From a virus: 64,000 nucleotides of DNA. The stretch spans positions 1 to 64,000 of the IMG/VR virus record IMGVR_UViG_3300050821_002136; one strand, given 5' to 3'. Position numbers and translations under genes: made by a program. Below the pieces are notes generated by a model, which searched no databases, had not been told where the DNA came from, and worked only from the letters and a program-made list of their open reading frames with translations. Below, piece by piece: positions 13,411 through 63,864 of this stretch; the stretch's first letter is position 1, and each line of letters starts with the position of its first letter.

Positions 13411-13486
<76 letters not shown>

Positions 13487-13491
13487 AAAAT

Positions 13492-13565
13492 TGGTGGACC
13501 GTGAGAGAGTTGAACTCTCGTTTGAAGCTTGCAAAGCTACTGTCCTCCCACTAGACGAACAGCCC
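13492..13565 (-). tRNA. tRNA-Ala (UGC)
   Basis: GGGCTGT/ACGGTCC with G3.U70, loop TTTGCAA, A73, CCA. Confidence 0.88.
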
Positions 13566-13784
13566 ACATAAACTTGGATATTTCATTTCTTCGAAGAGGG
13601 AATGAAAATGCCTAAAGACCCTATTGTCGCCACATTCAGCTCTACGTATGGAGCAGGCACGCGACCGGCCTTTAGACGGCGTCGAATTCCGTAGCCTCAC
13701 CATCACCTCGGACGAGGGGTGAGTCTTTACTCGGCACGGGCTTATCAAGCCCTCACGGTCGCGTAGCGCCCATGGCCGAATCTT

Positions 13785-13860
13785 TGGAGCCCCTGGATGG
13801 GATTTAACCACCGGCCTCAACCGTACAAAGGGTGCGCTCTGTCTACTGAGCTACAAGGGC
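13785..13860 (-). tRNA. tRNA-Thr (UGU)
   Basis: GCCCTTG/CAGGGGC, loop TTTGTAC, CCA; T-loop TTAAATC and one anticodon-stem mismatch. Confidence 0.8.
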
Positions 13861-23437: not shown

Positions 23438-23512
23438 TGGTGGGCAATGCAGGACTCGAACCTGCGACATCCTGCGTGTAAGGCAGGCGCTCTGCCGCTG
23501 AGCTAATTGCCC
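23438..23512 (-). tRNA. tRNA-Val (UAC)
   Basis: Canonical cloverleaf, loop CTTACAC, TTCGAGT, CCA. Confidence 0.95.
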
Positions 23513-23868
23513 GTTATACTTCTCGCTTGTTTTGGACTAAGAGCAACAAGCTCCCATGCGCCGTCAAGAAACATCATTACCTTTGCTGGAGATTCGCTGA
23601 TGTCAATTACCTGTCCATCCTCGATCCATCCGTGAAAGCATGGGTATTGAATTGACGGAGAGACTGTAAGTTCATCAACAAATTTTCCCTCACGTTTCCA
23701 TAGAGGTTTTTGCCAAGGAGCGGGATTGTACCCATCCAGAGGGTTTTCAAAGTATACACACAGCCGATGGTTTGGTCCACACTTTGGACAGTCTAAGGTC
23801 ATTCCTTCTCCACTGTCGGGACGAAGTAGTCCACAAAATTTAGGATTTAAATTAATCAATGGAAGCAT
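23503..23868 (-). CDS. DUF6527-like protein
   Basis: CPKC..H, TVSPSI..CFHGWI.DG; stop overlaps the tRNA-Val 5' end. Confidence 0.6.
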   Translation of the reverse strand: MLPLINLNPKFCGLLRPDSGEGMTLDCPKCGPNHRLCVYFENPLDGYNPAPWQKPLWKREGKFVDELTVSPSIQYPCFHGWIEDGQVIDISESPAKVMMFLDGAWELVALSPKQARSITGN

Positions 23869-23887
23869 TGCTCTCTCCTTTGAAATT

Positions 23888-23963
23888 TGGTTGGCGCGGC
23901 AGGCTTCGAACCTGCGACCTCTCGGTTATCATCCGAGGGCTCTACCAATTGAGCTACGCGCCA
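23888..23963 (-). tRNA. tRNA-Ile (GAU)
   Basis: Cloverleaf, loop ATGATAA (A32), TTCGAAG, CCA. Confidence 0.9.
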
Positions 23964-42685: not shown

Positions 42686-43633
42686 ATGAGCGATGCACTG
42701 GTAGTACTGAACAACAACACAGCTATAATGTCTGGGGGCGTAGGTCTCGGCTCCTCGATTTTCAAAGCACGCCCTAGCTTTCTGGAACTGGTCCATAAGA
42801 GCAGCCGTCAAGAGAATGTGGTGCCCGGGGAATTCCGAGTGTTGTCAACGAATGAGCACCTGGGCAAGACCATTCGCGCAGTGCTCTTGGCCGTACCTCA
42901 GCCACGTCGTGAGTGGTACCGTGATCCCACCGTGTTCTCTAAGGACAACAAGGCATGCTTCTCGCTGGACGGCATTCGTCCACATGACCGTGCAGCTGAC
43001 CCTCAGGCCATGTACTGCGCAAAGTGCCCCAAGGGAGACATCAACTGGAACACATGGCGCAAGACGAAGGACCCCAAGGATCTCCCTCCGTGCGGTGCGT
43101 ATTGGCACTTGTTACTCGCTGATCGTGCAACACAGACGCCTTACTACCTCGACATCAAGGGCACAAGCGCTTCGCCCTTCAAGCAAGCCATGGAAACTCA
43201 GATGTCCGGCCTGCTTGCGAAGTTGATGGCCAATGTACGTGCTGAGAATAAGCAGCGCGGATATTCGCTAGTGACTCTGCAAAATCAGGAAACCGGAGAG
43301 CAGTTCCAAGAGTTCCGTACGACGCCTGGGTTTACTGTGCCAGAAACTGGGCAGCTCCCAATCTTGCCGATGCCGAACATCTTTGACATCAGCTTCGATA
43401 TCTACGCTGCAAGCAAAGATGGTGGACCGTACGTCATGGGCTTCAAGAACTTTGCTCTAATGAAGCCTGAGGACAAAGCTGAGTTTGGTCAGTTGTACCT
43501 CGACCTGATGCAGCAACGCGCAGAAGCACAGCAAGTGCAGCAGAACGACGAAGCCGAGGTAGATGCGGCAGTGGCCGAAGCCCCTGCTCAGCAAGCCAAG
43601 GGTGGTGAAGTTCTGCCGCCAATCACAATCTAA
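42686..43633 (+). CDS. Putative ssDNA-binding/annealing protein
   Basis: CFSLDG..P..CAKCP..PPC motif and acidic tail; adjacent to the exonuclease. Confidence 0.6.
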   Translation: MSDALVVLNNNTAIMSGGVGLGSSIFKARPSFLELVHKSSRQENVVPGEFRVLSTNEHLGKTIRAVLLAVPQPRREWYRDPTVFSKDNKACFSLDGIRPHDRAADPQAMYCAKCPKGDINWNTWRKTKDPKDLPPCGAYWHLLLADRATQTPYYLDIKGTSASPFKQAMETQMSGLLAKLMANVRAENKQRGYSLVTLQNQETGEQFQEFRTTPGFTVPETGQLPILPMPNIFDISFDIYAASKDGGPYVMGFKNFALMKPEDKAEFGQLYLDLMQQRAEAQQVQQNDEAEVDAAVAEAPAQQAKGGEVLPPITI

Positions 43634-43646
43634 AAAGGAGAAAATA

Positions 43647-43868
43647 ATGTTGAAAATAGAACTCAACGGGGAAAGGAACTATGAGCTTGCTAAGTTGTCA
43701 GCCAAGCTTATCGACGGAGACTTAGTGATCACTGACGAAACCGCTGGTTGGTCTCTGGTTGCTTTGCGTATCGTGGACAATAAGATCAACCTTGTGCGCT
43801 ACAACAGCATCGCTGATAAGAATTACAACACAGACAAACAGGGCAGGCTTGTAGAAGTGCCCGAGTAG
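43647..43868 (+). CDS. Hypothetical protein
   Basis: AAAGGAG RBS, start MLKIEL. Confidence 0.65.
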   Translation: MLKIELNGERNYELAKLSAKLIDGDLVITDETAGWSLVALRIVDNKINLVRYNSIADKNYNTDKQGRLVEVPE

Positions 43869-43899
43869 GTCGTCGCGGCGACGTTAAGCCGATGGTGGA

Positions 43900-44014
43900 G
43901 GCGTGCGGTTCTACAGGGGGAGGGCTTAGCGGCCCTGGTGGAAATCTGAGCACTAAGGTGAGGCAAAGATGAAATCTCAGATATGAACTCCCTTCCCCTG
44001 TAGGGCCGTACGCC
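43900..44014 (+). ncRNA. Long hairpin RNA upstream of tmRNA
   Basis: 25-bp stem 43900-43924/43990-44014; its 4 non-Watson-Crick pairs are all G.U on the plus strand. Confidence 0.6.
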
Positions 44015-44019
44015 CCGTA

Positions 44020-44294
44020 AGTTATGGATGTATGAAGCTGAGGTACGAGTTGCAAGACCCGGTTTCGATACCGGCAGGTCCACCACAACGCTTCAGGTAT
44101 AACGGCATTACCGGCGTACACCCGGAGAGCGGGTCTCGCTGAAGCGTTTTGATGGGCCTGAAAGGTTTCGATTGCGACTACGAGACAGCAGTGGACATCC
44201 CGAGATGACGTGGCCCTCGTTAAAAGGACACGTAACAACCAACCGCGACTGAAAAGCCGATGGTTATGGCAGCTGCCGCAGGGCGCTAGCCATA
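44020..44294 (+). ncRNA. ssrA: Circularly permuted (two-piece) tmRNA
   Basis: Acceptor piece ending CAGGTCC-A-CCA (44075-44085) precedes 5' GGGCCTG (44154); G3.U70; helix 2, pk1 and tag ORF 44245-44289. Confidence 0.9.
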
Positions 44295-44295
44295 G

Positions 44296-44328
44296 GGTGG
44301 GCAGGGTCAAACCTGCCCTACCGATTTT
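44296..44328 (+). terminator. Terminator after tmRNA coding piece
   Basis: GGGCAGG-GTCAAA-CCTGCCC then TACCGATTTT. Confidence 0.6.
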
Positions 44329-44368
44329 AGATTCAGATGTACAAACCCAAACAGGAGAAACAACATCA

Positions 44369-44899
44369 ATGAAGTACCTTAGCTCCATCTTAGCAATTCT
44401 CGTTCTTTCCATTGCGGCCTTTTCTCAGGATTACCCAGTAGGCCCGAACGTAGGCAAGGCAACCACGCCGTACGCAACCACCAACTTCTCGGCCACATTC
44501 GACGGCCCAGTGACTGCAATGTTGCCAACGAGGAATGGCGAGAACACCAGCACCGATTACAAGTACGTTTCTCAGAACGGCAAAGTTGCAGAAGCAGTCA
44601 CGGTTCGCTTTATTGACCATGACATTGCTGTGGACTATACGTCCTCCGACTTCTACGCCAACGACGACCGCACGGGCGGCACGGTAGACACGGCTAACAC
44701 CAGTCATGATTCGTGGAATGGTGCGCCGTTCACTTATACGTACCGTACCTTTACGCTCGATGGTGTGATACTGACCAAGCGTACTCGTTACATCATCGTG
44801 AATGCTCGTGAGGCCATCTTCATTCAGCAAATCACGGCTGTTGGATATGAAGATCGGCCGGAATGGCTGGACTTCGAGTACTCGTTACGCATCAAGTGA
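44369..44899 (+). CDS. Secreted/periplasmic protein
   Basis: CAGGAG RBS; signal peptide MKYLSSILAILVLSIAAFSQ. Confidence 0.8.
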   Translation: MKYLSSILAILVLSIAAFSQDYPVGPNVGKATTPYATTNFSATFDGPVTAMLPTRNGENTSTDYKYVSQNGKVAEAVTVRFIDHDIAVDYTSSDFYANDDRTGGTVDTANTSHDSWNGAPFTYTYRTFTLDGVILTKRTRYIIVNAREAIFIQQITAVGYEDRPEWLDFEYSLRIK

Positions 44900-44908
44900 A
44901 CGAACAAT

Positions 44909-44938
44909 GGGGAGGGTCAAACCTCCCCTCTATTTTTC
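44909..44938 (+). terminator. Intrinsic terminator
   Basis: GGGGAGG-GTCAAA-CCTCCCC then TCTATTTTT. Confidence 0.7.
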
Positions 44939-45140
44939 TGTTAAGGAGGAAAATAATGGAAGAACATGTCAAAAACATTCTGGCTTTAGCCTGGGCCTCG
45001 TTCGATACGCCGCTCTGGCACGCTCGTAAAGAGATGCAAGAATACCTTGAGAAACATTTTGAGCTAAAGAAAGTAGCCACAGCTGCCGACGCTGCGGAAG
45101 GTTGGAACGGGCGCATGCCTAAGTACTTCTAAGGAGAACC

Positions 45141-45971
45141 ATGGAGCCCATTGTAATCGTAGGAGAAGCCGTAGCAGGCCGAGAAGCCAAGCTAGCCGCT
45201 CTGCGTAAACGCATACGAGCCTTGGCCAATGACATAGAGATAAACACCTTCGACTTGGCTGAGGCTTTTTTTCAAGCTCAGGAATCCCATTGCTATGTTG
45301 AGTGGGGCTTCGAATCTCTCGGTGAGTACGCGTCGTTGGAGCTAGGCATCAAGCATAGGAAGGCGCAGTACCTCGCTCGAATAGTTCGTGTCTGCCGTGC
45401 CTGTGGAGTAGCTAGGAAGGACTACGAGCCTGTAGGTGTATCCAAGCTTCGCGTCATTACAGGGTTGGACCCTGAAAGCTCCTTCTTCAACACAGAGACA
45501 AAGACCAACGAGCCCATGGTTGAGCATATCGTGCGCCTTATTGCTGAAGCTCCTGAACTAACCACAGTTGAAGTAGAGGACGAAGTGCAGCGGCTGATGG
45601 GCAACGTGGGCGAGAATGCCATGGTGACTAAGAGCTACCGAGTCACCAAGAGTGCCTATGAGAACACCGTGCAACGTTGCTTCGAGTCAGTACGGAAGCG
45701 ACTAGGCAGCAAAGGCCGGGACGGCACAGGTGCAGCCGTGGAGTATACGGACGGCAATTGCTTGGAAGCTGTCTGCGCCGAGTACAATAGTGATCCAAGA
45801 AATTTCATGGAAGAGCTGGACGAAAGCAAAGAACAAATCGAAGTACCGGAGGAACCAAATGCACACATTAGAGATGTCACCGGAGCACCCGTTCATGTGG
45901 CTAGCGAGGAAGCAGCACAAGACTCACTTCCGAGAACGCACGTCCCGTTCATCGTACCTACCGAAGACTAA
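45141..45971 (+). CDS. Helical protein resembling HNH-associated N-terminal domains
   Basis: WGFESLGEYA..ELG...RKAQYL..I...GVSKL. Confidence 0.6.
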   Translation: MEPIVIVGEAVAGREAKLAALRKRIRALANDIEINTFDLAEAFFQAQESHCYVEWGFESLGEYASLELGIKHRKAQYLARIVRVCRACGVARKDYEPVGVSKLRVITGLDPESSFFNTETKTNEPMVEHIVRLIAEAPELTTVEVEDEVQRLMGNVGENAMVTKSYRVTKSAYENTVQRCFESVRKRLGSKGRDGTGAAVEYTDGNCLEAVCAEYNSDPRNFMEELDESKEQIEVPEEPNAHIRDVTGAPVHVASEEAAQDSLPRTHVPFIVPTED

Positions 45972-46245
45972 TACCCTGGGTCTCTATGATGGAAGCGCAG
46001 AAGCCCGGGCTATCGTGAACAACGCTATGCAAGAAGTGGAAGCAAGAGAAGTGCTTGCTGCTTGTATACTTTTGCATGTCCTGCACTATCTAAAAGGTAT
46101 GGACACTGTGGAAGGCTCTTTTACTGCTGAGTTCTTTGAGGGTACTGATCCTTTCAAAGAGGAAGAAAAGGACTTTGAAGACTCCGTGGAAAAGAACAAA
46201 GAATTACTGGAGAAACTCTCTGATGAGTCTACGTCTGGAAGTTGA
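45859..46245 (+). CDS. Hypothetical protein overlapping the upstream gene
   Basis: GGAGGA RBS before MHTLEM; 113-nt overlap. Confidence 0.6.
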   Translation: MHTLEMSPEHPFMWLARKQHKTHFRERTSRSSYLPKTNTLGLYDGSAEARAIVNNAMQEVEAREVLAACILLHVLHYLKGMDTVEGSFTAEFFEGTDPFKEEEKDFEDSVEKNKELLEKLSDESTSGS

Positions 46246-53301: not shown

Positions 53302-53667
53302 ATGCCTTGGCCTATAAAGCACGGACTTGCTTTCCATCCACTCTACCGTGTATGGATGTCCGTAAAGCAAAAGTGCACTAACCCAAAAAGCCTTGTTTAT
53401 AAAGACTACGGTGGGCGCGGCATTAAAATGCACAAACCTTGGGAAAGAGACGTACGTCGGTTTGTGCACTACGTTATGGAAAACCTAGGAGAACGCCCTT
53501 CAAAACGGCACTCTTTGGATCGTAGAAATAACAATGGTCATTACGTGCCTGGAAACATAAGATGGGCAACATGGGAAGAACAAGCTAGAAATCGAAGACC
53601 CGTTCGTTGCTTGGGAAACTACTCTGATGCAGAGCTACTACAAGAAATAAAGAAACGAGGAATATGA
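53302..53667 (+). CDS. HNH homing endonuclease
   Basis: KCTNP..YGGRGI..SLDRRNNNGHYVPGNIRWAT..QARN. Confidence 0.88.
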   Translation: MPWPIKHGLAFHPLYRVWMSVKQKCTNPKSLVYKDYGGRGIKMHKPWERDVRRFVHYVMENLGERPSKRHSLDRRNNNGHYVPGNIRWATWEEQARNRRPVRCLGNYSDAELLQEIKKRGI

Positions 53668-54785
53668 AAAAGGCCAATCACCAAGCAAACGTTGTAAGGA
53701 TTGCGGAAGTATTACCACACTCTAATGCCGACAGCTTGGAAATCATACACATCGGCGCATTCCAAGTAGTGACCAAGAAGGGCAACTTCAAAACTGGGGA
53801 TCTCGGTGTCTACATTCAGCCTGACAGCGTCGTACCTCAGACTGAGCCCTTCAAGTTCATTTGGGAAACCTATGTAGGCTTGGATGGTACTGTGCCTGAG
53901 AAACGCAGGCGCATCACCGTAAAGCGTTTGCGAAAGGAGTGGAGCGAAGGATTGCTCATGCCTCTCTCTGACTTCCCTGAGCTTTCTGTGTTCAATCTAC
54001 CTGAAGGCGCAGATGTCTCAGAACTCCTGGGCATCACTCACTATGACCCAGACAAAGGCAAGGAACCTGCTGCGGACAACGAGACCTTCAAGAAGAAGCG
54101 TAGCAAGTACCCAAGGAGTCTCAAGGGATGGTGGTATCTCATCCTGCACAAGCTGGGCATTTACACCAGCGGTGGGCAGAACCATGGGTTCGACAATGAG
54201 GAGGGAACAGACATGCCCGTGTTCGACGTAGATGCGTTCAAGCACTACAAGAACGCATTCGAACGTGAGGAGCTGGTAGAGGTAACTGAGAAGATCCATG
54301 GGAGCAATGCACGCTTCGTGTTCCGAGAGGGACACATGTACGCAGGGTCACGAACTCAGTGGAAAGCTGAGAACGCCAATTGTATCTGGCGCAATGTGCT
54401 CAGGGCTCAGCCATGGATTGAAGCATGGTGCCGTACGCATGAGGGCTATGGGCTCTACGGTGAGGTCACTCCCACCCAGGGTGAGAATTTTCAATATGGA
54501 AGCGCTGAACCTCAGTTCTTCCCATTTGACATTAGGACCCCTGAGGGAACTTGGCTGGAAGAAATAGAAACCGGACCAGCACAATGGGTACCCGTGCTAT
54601 ACCAAGGTCCGTTCTACTGGGAAGAAATCAGTAAGTTGGTTGACGGACAGACCGCTGTGCCAAATGCTAAGGGCATCCGAGAAGGCATAGTGATTCGTCC
54701 AGTGAAAGAACGGCATGTACGCGGCCTCGGCCGATTAATTCTCAAATGTGTCTCAAATTCGTACCTCGAAAAGGATGGAAAATAA
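53664..54785 (+). CDS. ATP-dependent RNA ligase (DRB0094/Rnl5-like)
   Basis: N-terminal OB domain (HSNADSLE..GDLGVYI.PDS..SEGL), TEKIHG, YGE, FDI, REGIV, K. Confidence 0.9.
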   Translation: MKKANHQANVVRIAEVLPHSNADSLEIIHIGAFQVVTKKGNFKTGDLGVYIQPDSVVPQTEPFKFIWETYVGLDGTVPEKRRRITVKRLRKEWSEGLLMPLSDFPELSVFNLPEGADVSELLGITHYDPDKGKEPAADNETFKKKRSKYPRSLKGWWYLILHKLGIYTSGGQNHGFDNEEGTDMPVFDVDAFKHYKNAFEREELVEVTEKIHGSNARFVFREGHMYAGSRTQWKAENANCIWRNVLRAQPWIEAWCRTHEGYGLYGEVTPTQGENFQYGSAEPQFFPFDIRTPEGTWLEEIETGPAQWVPVLYQGPFYWEEISKLVDGQTAVPNAKGIREGIVIRPVKERHVRGLGRLILKCVSNSYLEKDGK

Positions 54786-61126: not shown

Positions 61127-62149
61127 ATGAGCACAGCTGGAACGCAGCGCAAACTCGACATCACGCAGAGCAGCAAGCTTTATGCACAACTAGCCAAGGA
61201 CTTCTCAGCTAAGATCGTAGGCCAAGAGGAAGCTACTCAGGCCCTTCTGAATATTGTTGAGTCCCACCAAGCAGGCTTCTCGGATGCCAGCCACCCCGCT
61301 GGCGTAGCTCTGTTCCTCGGTCCAACAGGCACTGGCAAGACGCTAGTGGCTGAGACCCTGGCCGCATCCTTACTTGGTAGCAAGCTCGCCTGCCTGCGTA
61401 TTGACTGCGCTGAGTACCAGCACGGACATGAGATCGCCAAATTAGTGGGATCTCCCCCGGGATACTTGGGCCATCGTGAGACGCACCCGCTGCTGACACA
61501 GGAAGCACTTAACCAGTGGCACACGGACAAGATGAAGCTTTCCATTCTTCTCTTCGACGAGATCGAGAAGGCCAGTGATACGCTCTGGGCTTTGCTACTA
61601 GGCATCCTCGATAATGCTACGGTGACCTTAGGAGACAACCGCAAGGTTAACTTTAGCAATGTGATCATTGTCATGACAAGCAACCTCGGCGCACGTAAGA
61701 TGTCTAGTCGTGACATAGGATTCATGGACCCATCCGAAGAGACTGACAACGCTCGCATGGAGACGCAGGCCAGGAGCGCAGCAAAGAGCAAGTTCTCACC
61801 TGAGTTCATGAATCGTTTGCAGTCCATAGTGGTCTTCAAGACTTTGTCCGAGGAGCAAATTGAGAACATCCTTGAACTTGAATTGAAGGCGCTAGAGTAT
61901 CGCTTGTTCATGGTCAGCAAACCGTTCTTCACCATAGCCGTATCACCTAAAGCCAAACGTACGTTGCTGGCTGAGGGCTACGACAAGGCCTACGGTGCGC
62001 GGTATCTCAAACGCACTATCGAGAGACGCATACAGCAGCCGCTGGCAAGACTAGCAGCCAGTGGGCAAGTAGCAGAGCACGACAAAATCATCATTGATGA
62101 CCTCGGAGACAAGAGCTTCGAGTTCTACGTACAGGGGAGAAACTTATGA
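61127..62149 (+). CDS. Stand-alone ClpA/B/C D2-type AAA+ ATPase
   Basis: IVGQEEA, GPTGTGKT, GSPPGYLG, LFDEIEKA, MTSN, IGF, FSPEFMNR, YGARYLKR; no N-domain or D1. Confidence 0.92.
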   Translation: MSTAGTQRKLDITQSSKLYAQLAKDFSAKIVGQEEATQALLNIVESHQAGFSDASHPAGVALFLGPTGTGKTLVAETLAASLLGSKLACLRIDCAEYQHGHEIAKLVGSPPGYLGHRETHPLLTQEALNQWHTDKMKLSILLFDEIEKASDTLWALLLGILDNATVTLGDNRKVNFSNVIIVMTSNLGARKMSSRDIGFMDPSEETDNARMETQARSAAKSKFSPEFMNRLQSIVVFKTLSEEQIENILELELKALEYRLFMVSKPFFTIAVSPKAKRTLLAEGYDKAYGARYLKRTIERRIQQPLARLAASGQVAEHDKIIIDDLGDKSFEFYVQGRNL

Positions 62150-63171: not shown

Positions 63172-63864
63172 TTATTCTACAAGTTTTGGTACATACGTAC
63201 GCGCTGCATCGAGGTGCTGAGCATCGAAGTTTAGAGAAAACCCAATGGCACTTGTATCTCCGTTGTCCTCTTCAGCAGAATACGTGACCAAGCCTACAAT
63301 TTCCCCTTTGGTATTGAATATGGCTGAGCCACTATCGCCATGGTCTACTTTCAGAGAATAGCAAGCCTCTCCAGCTGCCACGTCCAATTCGCTGTAGTCG
63401 TCACACTCAAGCACTTTACCGTAACGAGGAATGGCTGGGTACTCTCCTCGGATGTCTCCATAGATGGTGACGGTCTCTCCAACCATTGCGGCTTTGGTCT
63501 TCACTGTTTCGATGTGAGTGAACGGAGACCCGTAAAACAAGTAGATCACATGATCTCGGTTGTCAGTTGCGGAAGCTATGAGGATGTGCTTCTCTGTAGA
63601 GAGATCAAAGGATACCAACGTTCCTTCTCCAGATTCGTTACAATGTTCGGCCGTAAGAAAAGCGTTCGGCCCAATTGCTGTGCTTGTACAATCTCCTAGT
63701 TTCTTTCCCTTCTCATCAAAGAAGGTTACCATGTGGGAAGTACGTTGCTCTGTTGTGGGGGCTGAGTGTTTGTGAGTCTTGAAGTGAGGAACCTCGTGAG
63801 GTCCAAGGAGGAACAACGAGAGAAGTCCCACGGAAAGAAAATAGTAGAAGTCTAAGCGAGTCAT
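63172..63864 (-). CDS. Trypsin-like serine protease
   Basis: LTAEHC, D, HGDSGS; N-terminal hydrophobic anchor. Confidence 0.9.
   Translation of the reverse strand: MTRLDFYYFLSVGLLSLFLLGPHEVPHFKTHKHSAPTTEQRTSHMVTFFDEKGKKLGDCTSTAIGPNAFLTAEHCNESGEGTLVSFDLSTEKHILIASATDNRDHVIYLFYGSPFTHIETVKTKAAMVGETVTIYGDIRGEYPAIPRYGKVLECDDYSELDVAAGEACYSLKVDHGDSGSAIFNTKGEIVGLVTYSAEEDNGDTSAIGFSLNFDAQHLDAARTYVPKLVE

What the first reader, a model, noticed from the sequence alone, without database searches (positions are those of the whole stretch)
44245..44289. Non-canonical tmRNA tag: degron-like AAAA capped by Gly-Arg
Seen: GCG ACT GAA AAG CCG ATG GTT ATG GCA GCT GCC GCA GGG CGC TAG = (A)ATEKPMVMAAAAGR*. Known: ClpX recognises the free C-terminal Ala-Ala of ssrA tags, and charged terminal substitutions stabilise tagged proteins. 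Inference: the phage tmRNA may rescue ribosomes while sparing the products from host ClpXP, or may route them to a different unfoldase. The resume codon is inferred from its position after pk1.
Basis: partly seen in the sequence, partly recalled or inferred. Interest (0 to 1): 0.8.

Follow-up and report, generated by a model that had tools for sequence, protein, structure and literature searches.

The report
Phage tmRNA tag ending Gly-Arg
A soil phage carries a working-looking two-piece ribosome-rescue RNA (tmRNA) whose "destroy-me" tag ends in Gly-Arg instead of the usual Ala-Ala; related phages keep this ending, so the tag probably no longer sends rescued proteins to the ClpXP protease, though no degradation has been measured.

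Summary
Observation confirmed. Window 44026-44322 (+) is a circularly permuted tmRNA gene (Rfam RF04321, 66.6 bits) in a 108-kb phage. It has a 7/7 acceptor stem with G3:U70, PK1, the frame-setting A at -4, resume codon GCG 44245 and stop UAG 44287. The tag ends -AAAAGR.

The Gly-Arg end recurs in at least six other assembled phage sequences (Gly GGG/GGA, Arg CGC/CGG). Two short unitigs add GGT and a TAA stop.

A tree of the neighbouring gene puts canonical -AA tags basal. One well-supported inner clade holds all the non-canonical ends (-GR, -HA, -GA).

New here: in GR-type genes the frame does not stop in the helix 5 loop. It runs round a 4-nt loop and down the 3' strand, so the complement of the Ala codons is read as Gly-Arg-stop. 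One sister keeps the helix by two compensatory swaps but changes the peptide to -ARAGA, so RNA structure confounds any claim of selection on the peptide.

The Ala-Ala-COO- that ClpX needs is missing, but no degradation was tested.

The phage also encodes a single-ring Clp ATPase with an IGF loop. Its link to the tag is unproven: another phage has it and shows no permuted tmRNA.

This scan has flagged unusual phage tmRNA tags on other DNA before.

The parts
44026..44085 (+). Acceptor piece of the two-piece tmRNA: 3' strand of helix 2, T-arm (about 44058-44074), acceptor 3' strand CAGGTCC 44075-44081, discriminator A 44082, encoded CCA 44083-44085
   Evidence: Rfam RF04321 alignment; 7/7 pairing with the 5' strand found by script
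44086..44153 (+). 68-nt intervening sequence between the two pieces; expected to be removed during maturation (inferred)
   Evidence: Lies in the insert region of the Rfam alignment. Its length varies from 26 to 122 nt among relatives. A 15-kb contig of run X6 replaces this part with other letters while keeping the tag
44154..44244 (+). 5' part of the coding piece: acceptor 5' strand GGGCCTG 44154-44160 (G3 pairs U at 44079), D-loop-like GGTTTCGA, 5' strand of helix 2, PK1 (44201-04/44216-19; 44208-12/44229-33), 11-nt spacer with A at -4 (44241)
   Evidence: PK1 stem 2 covaries in L035 (GUGUG/CACGC against ACGUG/CACGU), read. Spacer length and the A-at-minus-4 rule are from PMC2481249
44245..44289 (+). 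Tag reading frame: resume codon GCG 44245-47, 14 sense codons ending Gly (GGG 44281-83) and Arg (CGC 44284-86), stop TAG 44287-89
   Evidence: The frame is kept in 11 relatives
44264..44295 (+). Helix 5. The 5' strand is the Met/Ala codons, the loop is GCAG (44278-81), and the 3' strand holds the last two G of the Gly codon, the whole Arg codon, and the U and G of the stop
   Evidence: MFE folds. The same layout is seen in L036, L035 and L023. The outer stem covaries in L006/L007 (AUGAG(C)/(G)CUCAU against UAUGGC/GCCAUA)
44296..44328 (+). Terminal hairpin (44296-44322) followed by GAUUUU; either the 3' end structure of the coding piece or a terminator
   Evidence: Folds. The hairpin shows compensatory changes in all relatives: RNAalifold finds 6 pairs with both sides changed. 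The flanking AGGRUGG and CCUACCGA are conserved

Best explanation
Window 44026-44322 (+) is a functional two-piece (circularly permuted) tmRNA of a ~108-kb soil/peat phage. It works with host SmpB, AlaRS and ribosomes.

After the nascent chain is passed to the tmRNA's alanine, translation resumes at GCG 44245 and adds 14 residues ending Gly-Arg. It stops at UAG 44287.

The Gly-Arg end exists because, in this phage clade, the tag frame no longer stops in the loop of helix 5. It runs round a 4-nt loop and down the 3' strand, where the complement of the Ala codons is read as GGN-CGN-UAG. The Ala-rich tract is therefore internal, and the tag lacks the free Ala-Ala-COO- that ClpX binds.

The likely outcome is ribosome rescue uncoupled from canonical ClpXP degradation, a natural counterpart of the engineered ssrA-DD tag.

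Shown here: the gene, the frame, the conservation of the ending, and the helix layout. Inferred: function in vivo and the effect on proteolysis.
For: Gene and frame:
- Rfam hit at 66.6 bits with the resume codon aligned.
- All 12 family members have 7/7 acceptor stems with G3:U70, covarying positions 4-7, and a constant 88-100 nt from the 5' end to the resume codon.
- An A stands at -4 in all of them, and the PK1-to-resume spacer is 11 nt.

The tag is selected as a peptide. Window type and L016 type differ at 10 of 12 codons, and 6 of those differences are synonymous.

The GR end is retained:
- It occurs in the window, L006, L007, L035, L036 and L096.
- Contigs of runs X2, X3 and X6 carry an identical tag with different flanks. 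X4 unitigs show GGA CGG TAG and GGT CGG TAA.
- The neighbour-gene tree puts canonical -AA tags basal and all -GR/-HA/-GA tags in one clade with 99/98 support. GR is spread across that clade, including its first branch.

Helix layout: the last two codons and the stop are paired on the 3' strand in every GR/GA gene, whereas the stop lies in the loop in HA-type genes and in L030.

ClpX dependence on Ala-Ala-COO-: PMC7652416.

Phage growth needs rescue rather than tag proteolysis in the lambda-immP22 model: PMC2862035.

Tags with a charged end were known only from Carsonella among 710 unique tags: PMC4131195.

The phage has no SmpB and no ClpP.
Against: - No expression or tagging data exist, and no degradation assay has been done.
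- ClpX specificity is known from E. coli and a few other species, not from the unknown host.
- L023 keeps helix 5 through two compensatory pair swaps but ends -GA. HA-type relatives end in Ala. Avoiding a C-terminal Ala is therefore not universal in the clade.
- The conserved -AAHA and -AA(A/C)GR ends could equally be specific recognition signals rather than a loss of signal.
- All third-position changes in GGN and CGN are synonymous by default, so the codon variation is weak evidence for selection on the peptide.
Confidence: 0.55

Rival explanations
1. Private degron. The non-AA ends (-GR, -HA) are specific signals read by another unfoldase or adaptor. One candidate is the phage's own single-ring Clp ATPase (61127-62149), docking on host ClpP through its IGF loop. 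Others are host ClpA, Lon or FtsH. Tagged proteins would still be destroyed, but by a route the phage controls.
For: - The tag is conserved as a peptide: 6 synonymous against 4 non-synonymous codon differences between the window and L016 types.
- The -AAHA end is identical on two divergent nucleotide backgrounds in which the His codon sits in different structural contexts.
- The phage ATPase has Walker A/B motifs, a GYLG pore loop, and IGF at the alignment column of the E. coli ClpA IGL (617-619). ClpB lacks this loop.
- The ATPase is present in GR-tag phages G000 and G002, and absent from the complete canonical-tag phage G001.
Against: - Complete phage G003 has the ATPase, but no permuted tmRNA was found in it (the standard one-piece model was not run on it).
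- Bacterial homologues are chromosomal, in varied neighbourhoods.
- The ATPase gene lies 17 kb from the tmRNA.
- Only three genomes could be scored for co-occurrence, and G000 and G002 are close kin.
- No binding or degradation data exist.
Confidence: 0.2
2. Neutral by-product. Only ribosome rescue matters to the phage. The 3' end of the tag frame is shaped by the need to keep helix 5, and the peptide end (GR, GA or HA) has no selective meaning.
For: - The GR codons and the stop are base-paired with the Ala codons.
- L035 and L023 differ by two compensatory pair swaps that keep the helix but change -AAAGR to -ARAGA.
- Some relatives have lost the tmRNA or carry a tRNA at that spot.
Against: - The N-terminal and middle parts of the tag show mostly synonymous change across types.
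- GR persists across neighbour-protein divergence down to about 58% identity.
- In L006 and L007 the Gly codon lies in the loop, free of pairing, and is still Gly.
- -AAHA is kept on two different backgrounds.
Confidence: 0.2
3. Wrong frame or dead gene. Translation resumes elsewhere, or the RNA is a decaying relic that no longer tags.
For: ARAGORN does not call it. The Rfam score is lower than for some relatives, with a few non-standard pairs in helix 2.
Against: - The acceptor stem is perfect and covarying, with G3:U70, in all 12 relatives.
- PK1, the spacer and the A at -4 are conserved.
- The other frames stop after one codon or never stop.
- The frame-0 ORF is conserved across divergent relatives.
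Confidence: 0.03

Closest known systems
Two-piece (circularly permuted) tmRNA of Alphaproteobacteria, e.g. Caulobacter (Rfam RF01849 / RF04321)
   Same: Same gene order: T-arm, acceptor 3' strand and CCA, then intervening sequence, then acceptor 5' strand, helix 2, PK1 and tag frame. Same G3:U70, and a resume codon for Ala. Relatives L027 and L023 also reach the alpha_tmRNA model.
   Different: Much reduced: after the tag there is only helix 5 and one hairpin. The tag has no ANDN start and does not end in Ala-Ala. The stop codon lies inside the 3' strand of helix 5 instead of the loop.
Two-piece tmRNAs of marine phages (OM43 phage Melnitz, pelagimyophages; PMC9004378)
   Same: A phage-borne permuted tmRNA with no phage SmpB, probably of alphaproteobacterial type, possibly carried by a phage whose host has a different tmRNA type.
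   Different: Different habitat (soil/peat) and phage lineage. No blastn match in 50,697 phage records. No riboswitch hit here. That paper does not report a charged tag end.
Engineered ssrA-DD and similar proteolysis-resistant tags in E. coli
   Same: A change of the last two residues removes the Ala-Ala-COO- ClpX determinant while ribosome rescue is kept. Phage lambda-immP22 grows on such alleles (PMC2862035, PMC7652416).
   Different: This one is natural, basic rather than acidic, made by extending the frame by two codons, and retained over a phage clade. Its stability has not been measured.
Carsonella ruddii tmRNA tag ending in Lys (PMC4131195)
   Same: A natural tag with a basic last residue. 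It was the only such case among 710 unique tags in 2014.
   Different: Carsonella is a degenerate endosymbiont with a decaying smpB-ssrA locus, and some of its strains keep a hydrophobic end. Here the tmRNA is structurally intact and the end recurs in several phages.
Mycoplasma ssrA tags read by Lon
   Same: A precedent that a tmRNA tag can be matched to a protease other than ClpXP (established knowledge; also PMC10695633, listed).
   Different: There the cell lacks ClpXP and the Lon link was shown by experiment. Here no reader of the tag is known.

Membership tests
tmRNA, permuted / two-piece form (RF04321) | Score at or above the family's curated threshold | tested here: met
   66.6 bits against gathering score 47, full model 1-213; same result on the whole genome
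tmRNA, permuted / two-piece form (RF04321) | tRNA-Ala-like acceptor: 7-bp stem, G3:U70, discriminator A, CCA | tested here: met
   GGGCCTG / CAGGTCC + ACCA, 7/7 with G3:U70. All 12 relatives are also 7/7 with covariation; three of them (L012, L016, L019) lack an encoded CCA
tmRNA, permuted / two-piece form (RF04321) | Permuted order: the 3' acceptor half lies upstream of the 5' acceptor half | tested here: met
   3' strand at 44075-44085, 5' strand at 44154-44160, 68 nt between
tmRNA, permuted / two-piece form (RF04321) | PK1 followed by a spacer with A at -4 and an in-frame tag ORF with a stop | tested here: met
   PK1 pairs read; 11-nt spacer; A at 44241; ORF 44245-44289. Rule from PMC2481249
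tmRNA, permuted / two-piece form (RF04321) | Processing into two RNA pieces, alanylation, SmpB binding | not testable with these tools
   No RNA run holds the stretch. The phage has no SmpB of its own
Canonical ssrA degron for ClpX (C-terminal Ala-Ala-COO-) | The last two residues are Ala-Ala (or a close hydrophobic variant) with a free carboxylate | tested here: not met
   The tag ends Gly-Arg. Candidate host-phylum tmRNAs end -YAA or -LAA
Canonical ssrA degron for ClpX (C-terminal Ala-Ala-COO-) | Degradation of tagged substrates by ClpXP | not testable with these tools
   Needs a biochemical assay
ClpP-docking Clp/Hsp100 unfoldase (for the 61127-62149 protein) | AAA_2 module plus D2-small domain, Walker A/B motifs, aromatic pore loop | tested here: met
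   Pfam AAA_2 8.9e-38 and ClpB_D2-small 3.9e-18. Best solved match is ClpB NBD2, 1.5e-59. GPTGTGKT, ILLFDE and GYLG found
ClpP-docking Clp/Hsp100 unfoldase (for the 61127-62149 protein) | [I/L/V]-G-[F/L] loop at the ClpP-docking position | tested here: met
   IGF 197-199 aligns with ClpA IGL 617-619, and ClpB has no such tripeptide there. Actual docking was not tested

The most novel reading that the evidence does not exclude
The phage runs an orthogonal tagging system. Its own tmRNA writes a tag that host ClpX cannot read (-GR, or -HA in sister phages). That tag is read instead by the phage's minimal single-ring Clp ATPase, which borrows host ClpP through its IGF loop.

A conserved element just upstream of the tmRNA (43891-44016) may interfere with host tmRNA, because its 5' motif is the exact complement of the 3' end of host-type tmRNAs.

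Together these would let the phage take over the fate of every protein released from a stalled ribosome.
Probability: 0.1. Interest if true: 0.85.

Novelty: new variant of a known kind. Interest (0 to 1): 0.6.

Why it matters
tmRNA tags are textbook degrons, and nearly all known ones end in Ala-Ala or another hydrophobic pair. A structurally intact, evolutionarily retained tmRNA whose tag ends in a basic residue would be a natural separation-of-function allele: rescue without the canonical ClpXP signal.

It would give a direct way to ask what a phage gains from trans-translation. The options are more ribosomes, protection of ClpXP capacity, or a private degradation route.

The helix 5 layout also shows how the RNA structure of a tmRNA can dictate the peptide it encodes. 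That is a caution for reading selection into tag sequences.

Tried and rejected
- ARAGORN finds no tmRNA in the window. Rfam does.
- blastn of 43000-46000 against 50,697 phage records gave no match.
- An exact 25-nt T-arm/acceptor pattern in viral contigs gave none. The L035-type tag pattern gave none. The HA-type pattern only re-found the L019 sequence.
- The neighbour protein in bacterial genomes gave no relative, so there is no prophage-based host call.
- The host stays unknown. The only hint is that the phage Clp ATPase's nearest bacterial homologues (45-56% identity) are in Acidobacteriota and Gemmatimonadota MAGs. Those loci share no other phage gene.
- No RNA holder is listed among public runs, so nothing can be said on expression or processing.
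- RNAalifold on a MAFFT alignment of six GR/GA genes recovers only the inner part of helix 5, because of indels. I used per-sequence folds instead.
- ATPase/tag co-occurrence could be scored in only three complete genomes, and a fourth breaks a strict link.
- The supplement of the 2025 tmRNA database paper holds no tag list, so I could not count charged ends among its 97,179 sequences.
- Reading the upstream hairpin as a minus-strand alanine minihelix was rejected. The stem needs a bulged U or C, and the long forms fold 9-29 kcal/mol better on the + strand.
- TAG recoding was rejected: TAG ends 10 of 58 long ORFs.
It was redone by reference.

Full report
WHAT IS THERE

The window is the first 64 kb of a 108,277-bp IMG/VR virus record, 98% complete. 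It is a phage. It encodes a large terminase, DNA polymerase, ribonucleotide reductase, a UvsX-like recombinase, primase-helicase, RNA ligase and five tRNAs.

Rfam places a permuted tmRNA at 44026-44283 (+), at 66.6 bits against a threshold of 47. It aligns the model's resume codon to GCG 44245. ARAGORN misses the gene.

IS THE GENE SOUND AND THE FRAME RIGHT

- The acceptor 5' strand (44154-44160) pairs 7/7 with the 3' strand (44075-44081). It has G3:U70, discriminator A and an encoded CCA.
- The same holds for all 12 members of the phage family that I collected. Stem positions 4-7 covary, and the distance from the 5' end to the resume codon is a constant 88-100 nt.
- PK1 can be drawn at 44201-04/44216-19 and 44208-12/44229-33.
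- The spacer to the resume codon is 11 nt, and an A stands at -4. These match the E. coli layout, in which A86 sets the frame (PMC2481249). All relatives have the A at -4 (read).
- Frame +2 stops after one codon, and frame +1 never stops.
- TAG is a normal stop in this phage.
- The phage has no SmpB and no ClpP.

RELATIVES

The gene upstream (42686-43633) served as a handle. It led to one complete 109-kb phage (G001), one short viral contig and 31 metagenome contigs. DNA patterns added G002 (109.7 kb, complete), L037 and L096.

Rfam finds a permuted tmRNA just downstream of that gene in 12 of the loci. The tag ends, read by script and by eye, are:

| Source | Tag end |
|---|---|
| window | -AAAAGR |
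| L006, L007, L096 | -SAAAGR |
| L036/L037 | -AAACGR |
| L035 (different N-terminal half) | -SAAAGR |
| L023 | -SARAGA |
| L012, L016, L019 | -AAHA |
| L030 | -AFAAAA |
| L027 | -AVAA |
| L002 | -SVAA |

Gly is GGG or GGA, and Arg is CGC or CGG.

Contigs of three other public runs carry the window's tag unchanged on different flanks. Two unitigs of a freshwater run show GGA CGG TAG and GGT CGG TAA.

A maximum-likelihood tree of the upstream protein puts the canonical -AA genes basal. All non-canonical ends fall in one clade with 99/98 support. GR is spread over its unresolved backbone and over its first branch. GR is therefore old and probably ancestral to that clade.

WHY GLY-ARG

Per-sequence folds show that in every GR or GA gene the tag frame runs round a 4-nt loop of helix 5 (GCAG or UGCG) and down its 3' strand.

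In the window:
- the last two G of the Gly codon pair with the CC of an Ala codon;
- all three Arg letters are paired;
- the U and G of the stop are paired.

In the HA type and in L030 the stop lies in the loop, as in E. coli. The Gly-Arg-stop is thus the complement of the Ala (or Ser) codons read in frame.

L035 and L023 differ by two compensatory pair swaps. These keep the helix but move the Arg from the last position to -4. RNA structure is therefore a strong constraint, and it confounds any claim that the GR peptide itself is selected.

Against pure neutrality:
- Window type and L016 type differ at 10 of 12 codons, 6 of them synonymously.
- -AAHA is identical on two different nucleotide backgrounds.
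- In L006 and L007 the Gly codon is unpaired and still Gly.

WHAT IT LIKELY DOES

ClpX binds the Ala-Ala-COO- of ssrA tags in its closed pore, and mutation of either Ala raises KM (PMC7652416). Here the Ala tract is internal and the end is basic.

In the lambda-immP22 model, phage growth depends on ribosome rescue rather than on tag-directed proteolysis (PMC2862035).

The most economical reading is that this phage uses its tmRNA for rescue and has uncoupled it from canonical ClpXP degradation. The RNA ligase and tRNAs fit a phage that has to cope with damaged RNA, but that is inference.

In 2014, among 710 unique tags, only Carsonella had a charged last residue (PMC4131195). Two-piece tmRNAs in phages are known from marine phages (PMC9004378).

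THE UNFOLDASE LEAD

At 61127-62149 the phage encodes a 340-residue single-module Clp ATPase with AAA_2 and D2-small domains. Its best solved matches are ClpB NBD2, ClpC and ClpA D2.

It has an IGF tripeptide at the alignment column of the E. coli ClpA IGL loop (617-619), which docks on ClpP. ClpB lacks this loop.

Distribution:
- present in GR-tag phage G002;
- absent from canonical-tag phage G001;
- present in complete phage G003, in which no permuted tmRNA was found.

Its nearest bacterial homologues (45-56% identity, with LGF/MGF/IGF loops) are chromosomal genes of Acidobacteriota and Gemmatimonadota MAGs. This is also the only host hint. Five such genomes have one-piece tmRNAs with canonical tags ending -YAA or -LAA.

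The link between tag and ATPase is therefore a lead, not a finding. Earlier notes of this scan describe phage tmRNAs next to truncated ClpC genes on other DNA. They are unproven too.

VERDICT

This is a new variant of a known kind.

The part I consider new and solid is the conserved Gly-Arg end and its origin from the helix 5 layout. The part that remains open is whether the end means escape from proteolysis, a private degron, or nothing.

Noticed in passing
window 61127-62149 (+): A 340-aa single-ring Clp/Hsp100 ATPase made of the D2 module only. It has an IGF tripeptide at the ClpA IGL (ClpP-docking) position. There is no ClpP in the phage. Homologues with LGF/MGF/IGF are stand-alone chromosomal genes in Acidobacteriota and Gemmatimonadota MAGs, so this may be an undescribed ClpP partner family.
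   Followed up: partly
window 43891-44016 (+): A conserved element directly upstream of the tmRNA: UGGUGGAGG, then a hairpin (32-36 nt in short forms, 124-144 nt in long forms), then CGCCCC. It was found in at least 10 relatives, including canonical-tag L030. Its 5' motif is the exact complement of a tmRNA-type 3' end (CGCCUCCACCA, the end of four of the five Acidobacteriota tmRNAs as called; the fifth call stops at CGCCUCCA). The long forms fold far better on the + strand. Its function is unknown; it could be a processing site or an antisense to tmRNA ends.
   Followed up: partly
window 63172-63864 (-): A 230-aa trypsin-like serine peptidase (Pfam Trypsin_2) lies next to the Clp ATPase region. 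No PDZ domain was detected.
   Followed up: no
window 53664-54785 (+); tRNAs at 13411-13860 and 23438-23963 (-): An RNA ligase and five tRNA genes (Asn, Ala, Thr, Val, Ile) are carried together with the tmRNA. This could be a set for coping with host attack on RNA.
   Followed up: no
L004, L015, L029 (about 290 nt after the neighbour gene); L020 7030-7075: Three relatives carry a tRNA where the others carry the tmRNA. L020 keeps only a T-arm plus an acceptor 3' half with CCA and no coding piece, so the site is a hot spot for swapping small RNA genes.
   Followed up: partly
L012, L016, L017, L019, L022 (HA-type tmRNAs): These tmRNA genes have ACAG instead of ACCA after the acceptor stem, so the CCA end must be added after transcription. 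Some also have unusual T-loops.
   Followed up: no
G008 (Solibacteraceae MAG), L091 and L093: This bacterial genome holds two full-length one-piece tmRNA genes with different tags (ANNQQFAYAA and ANTQFAYAA).
   Followed up: no
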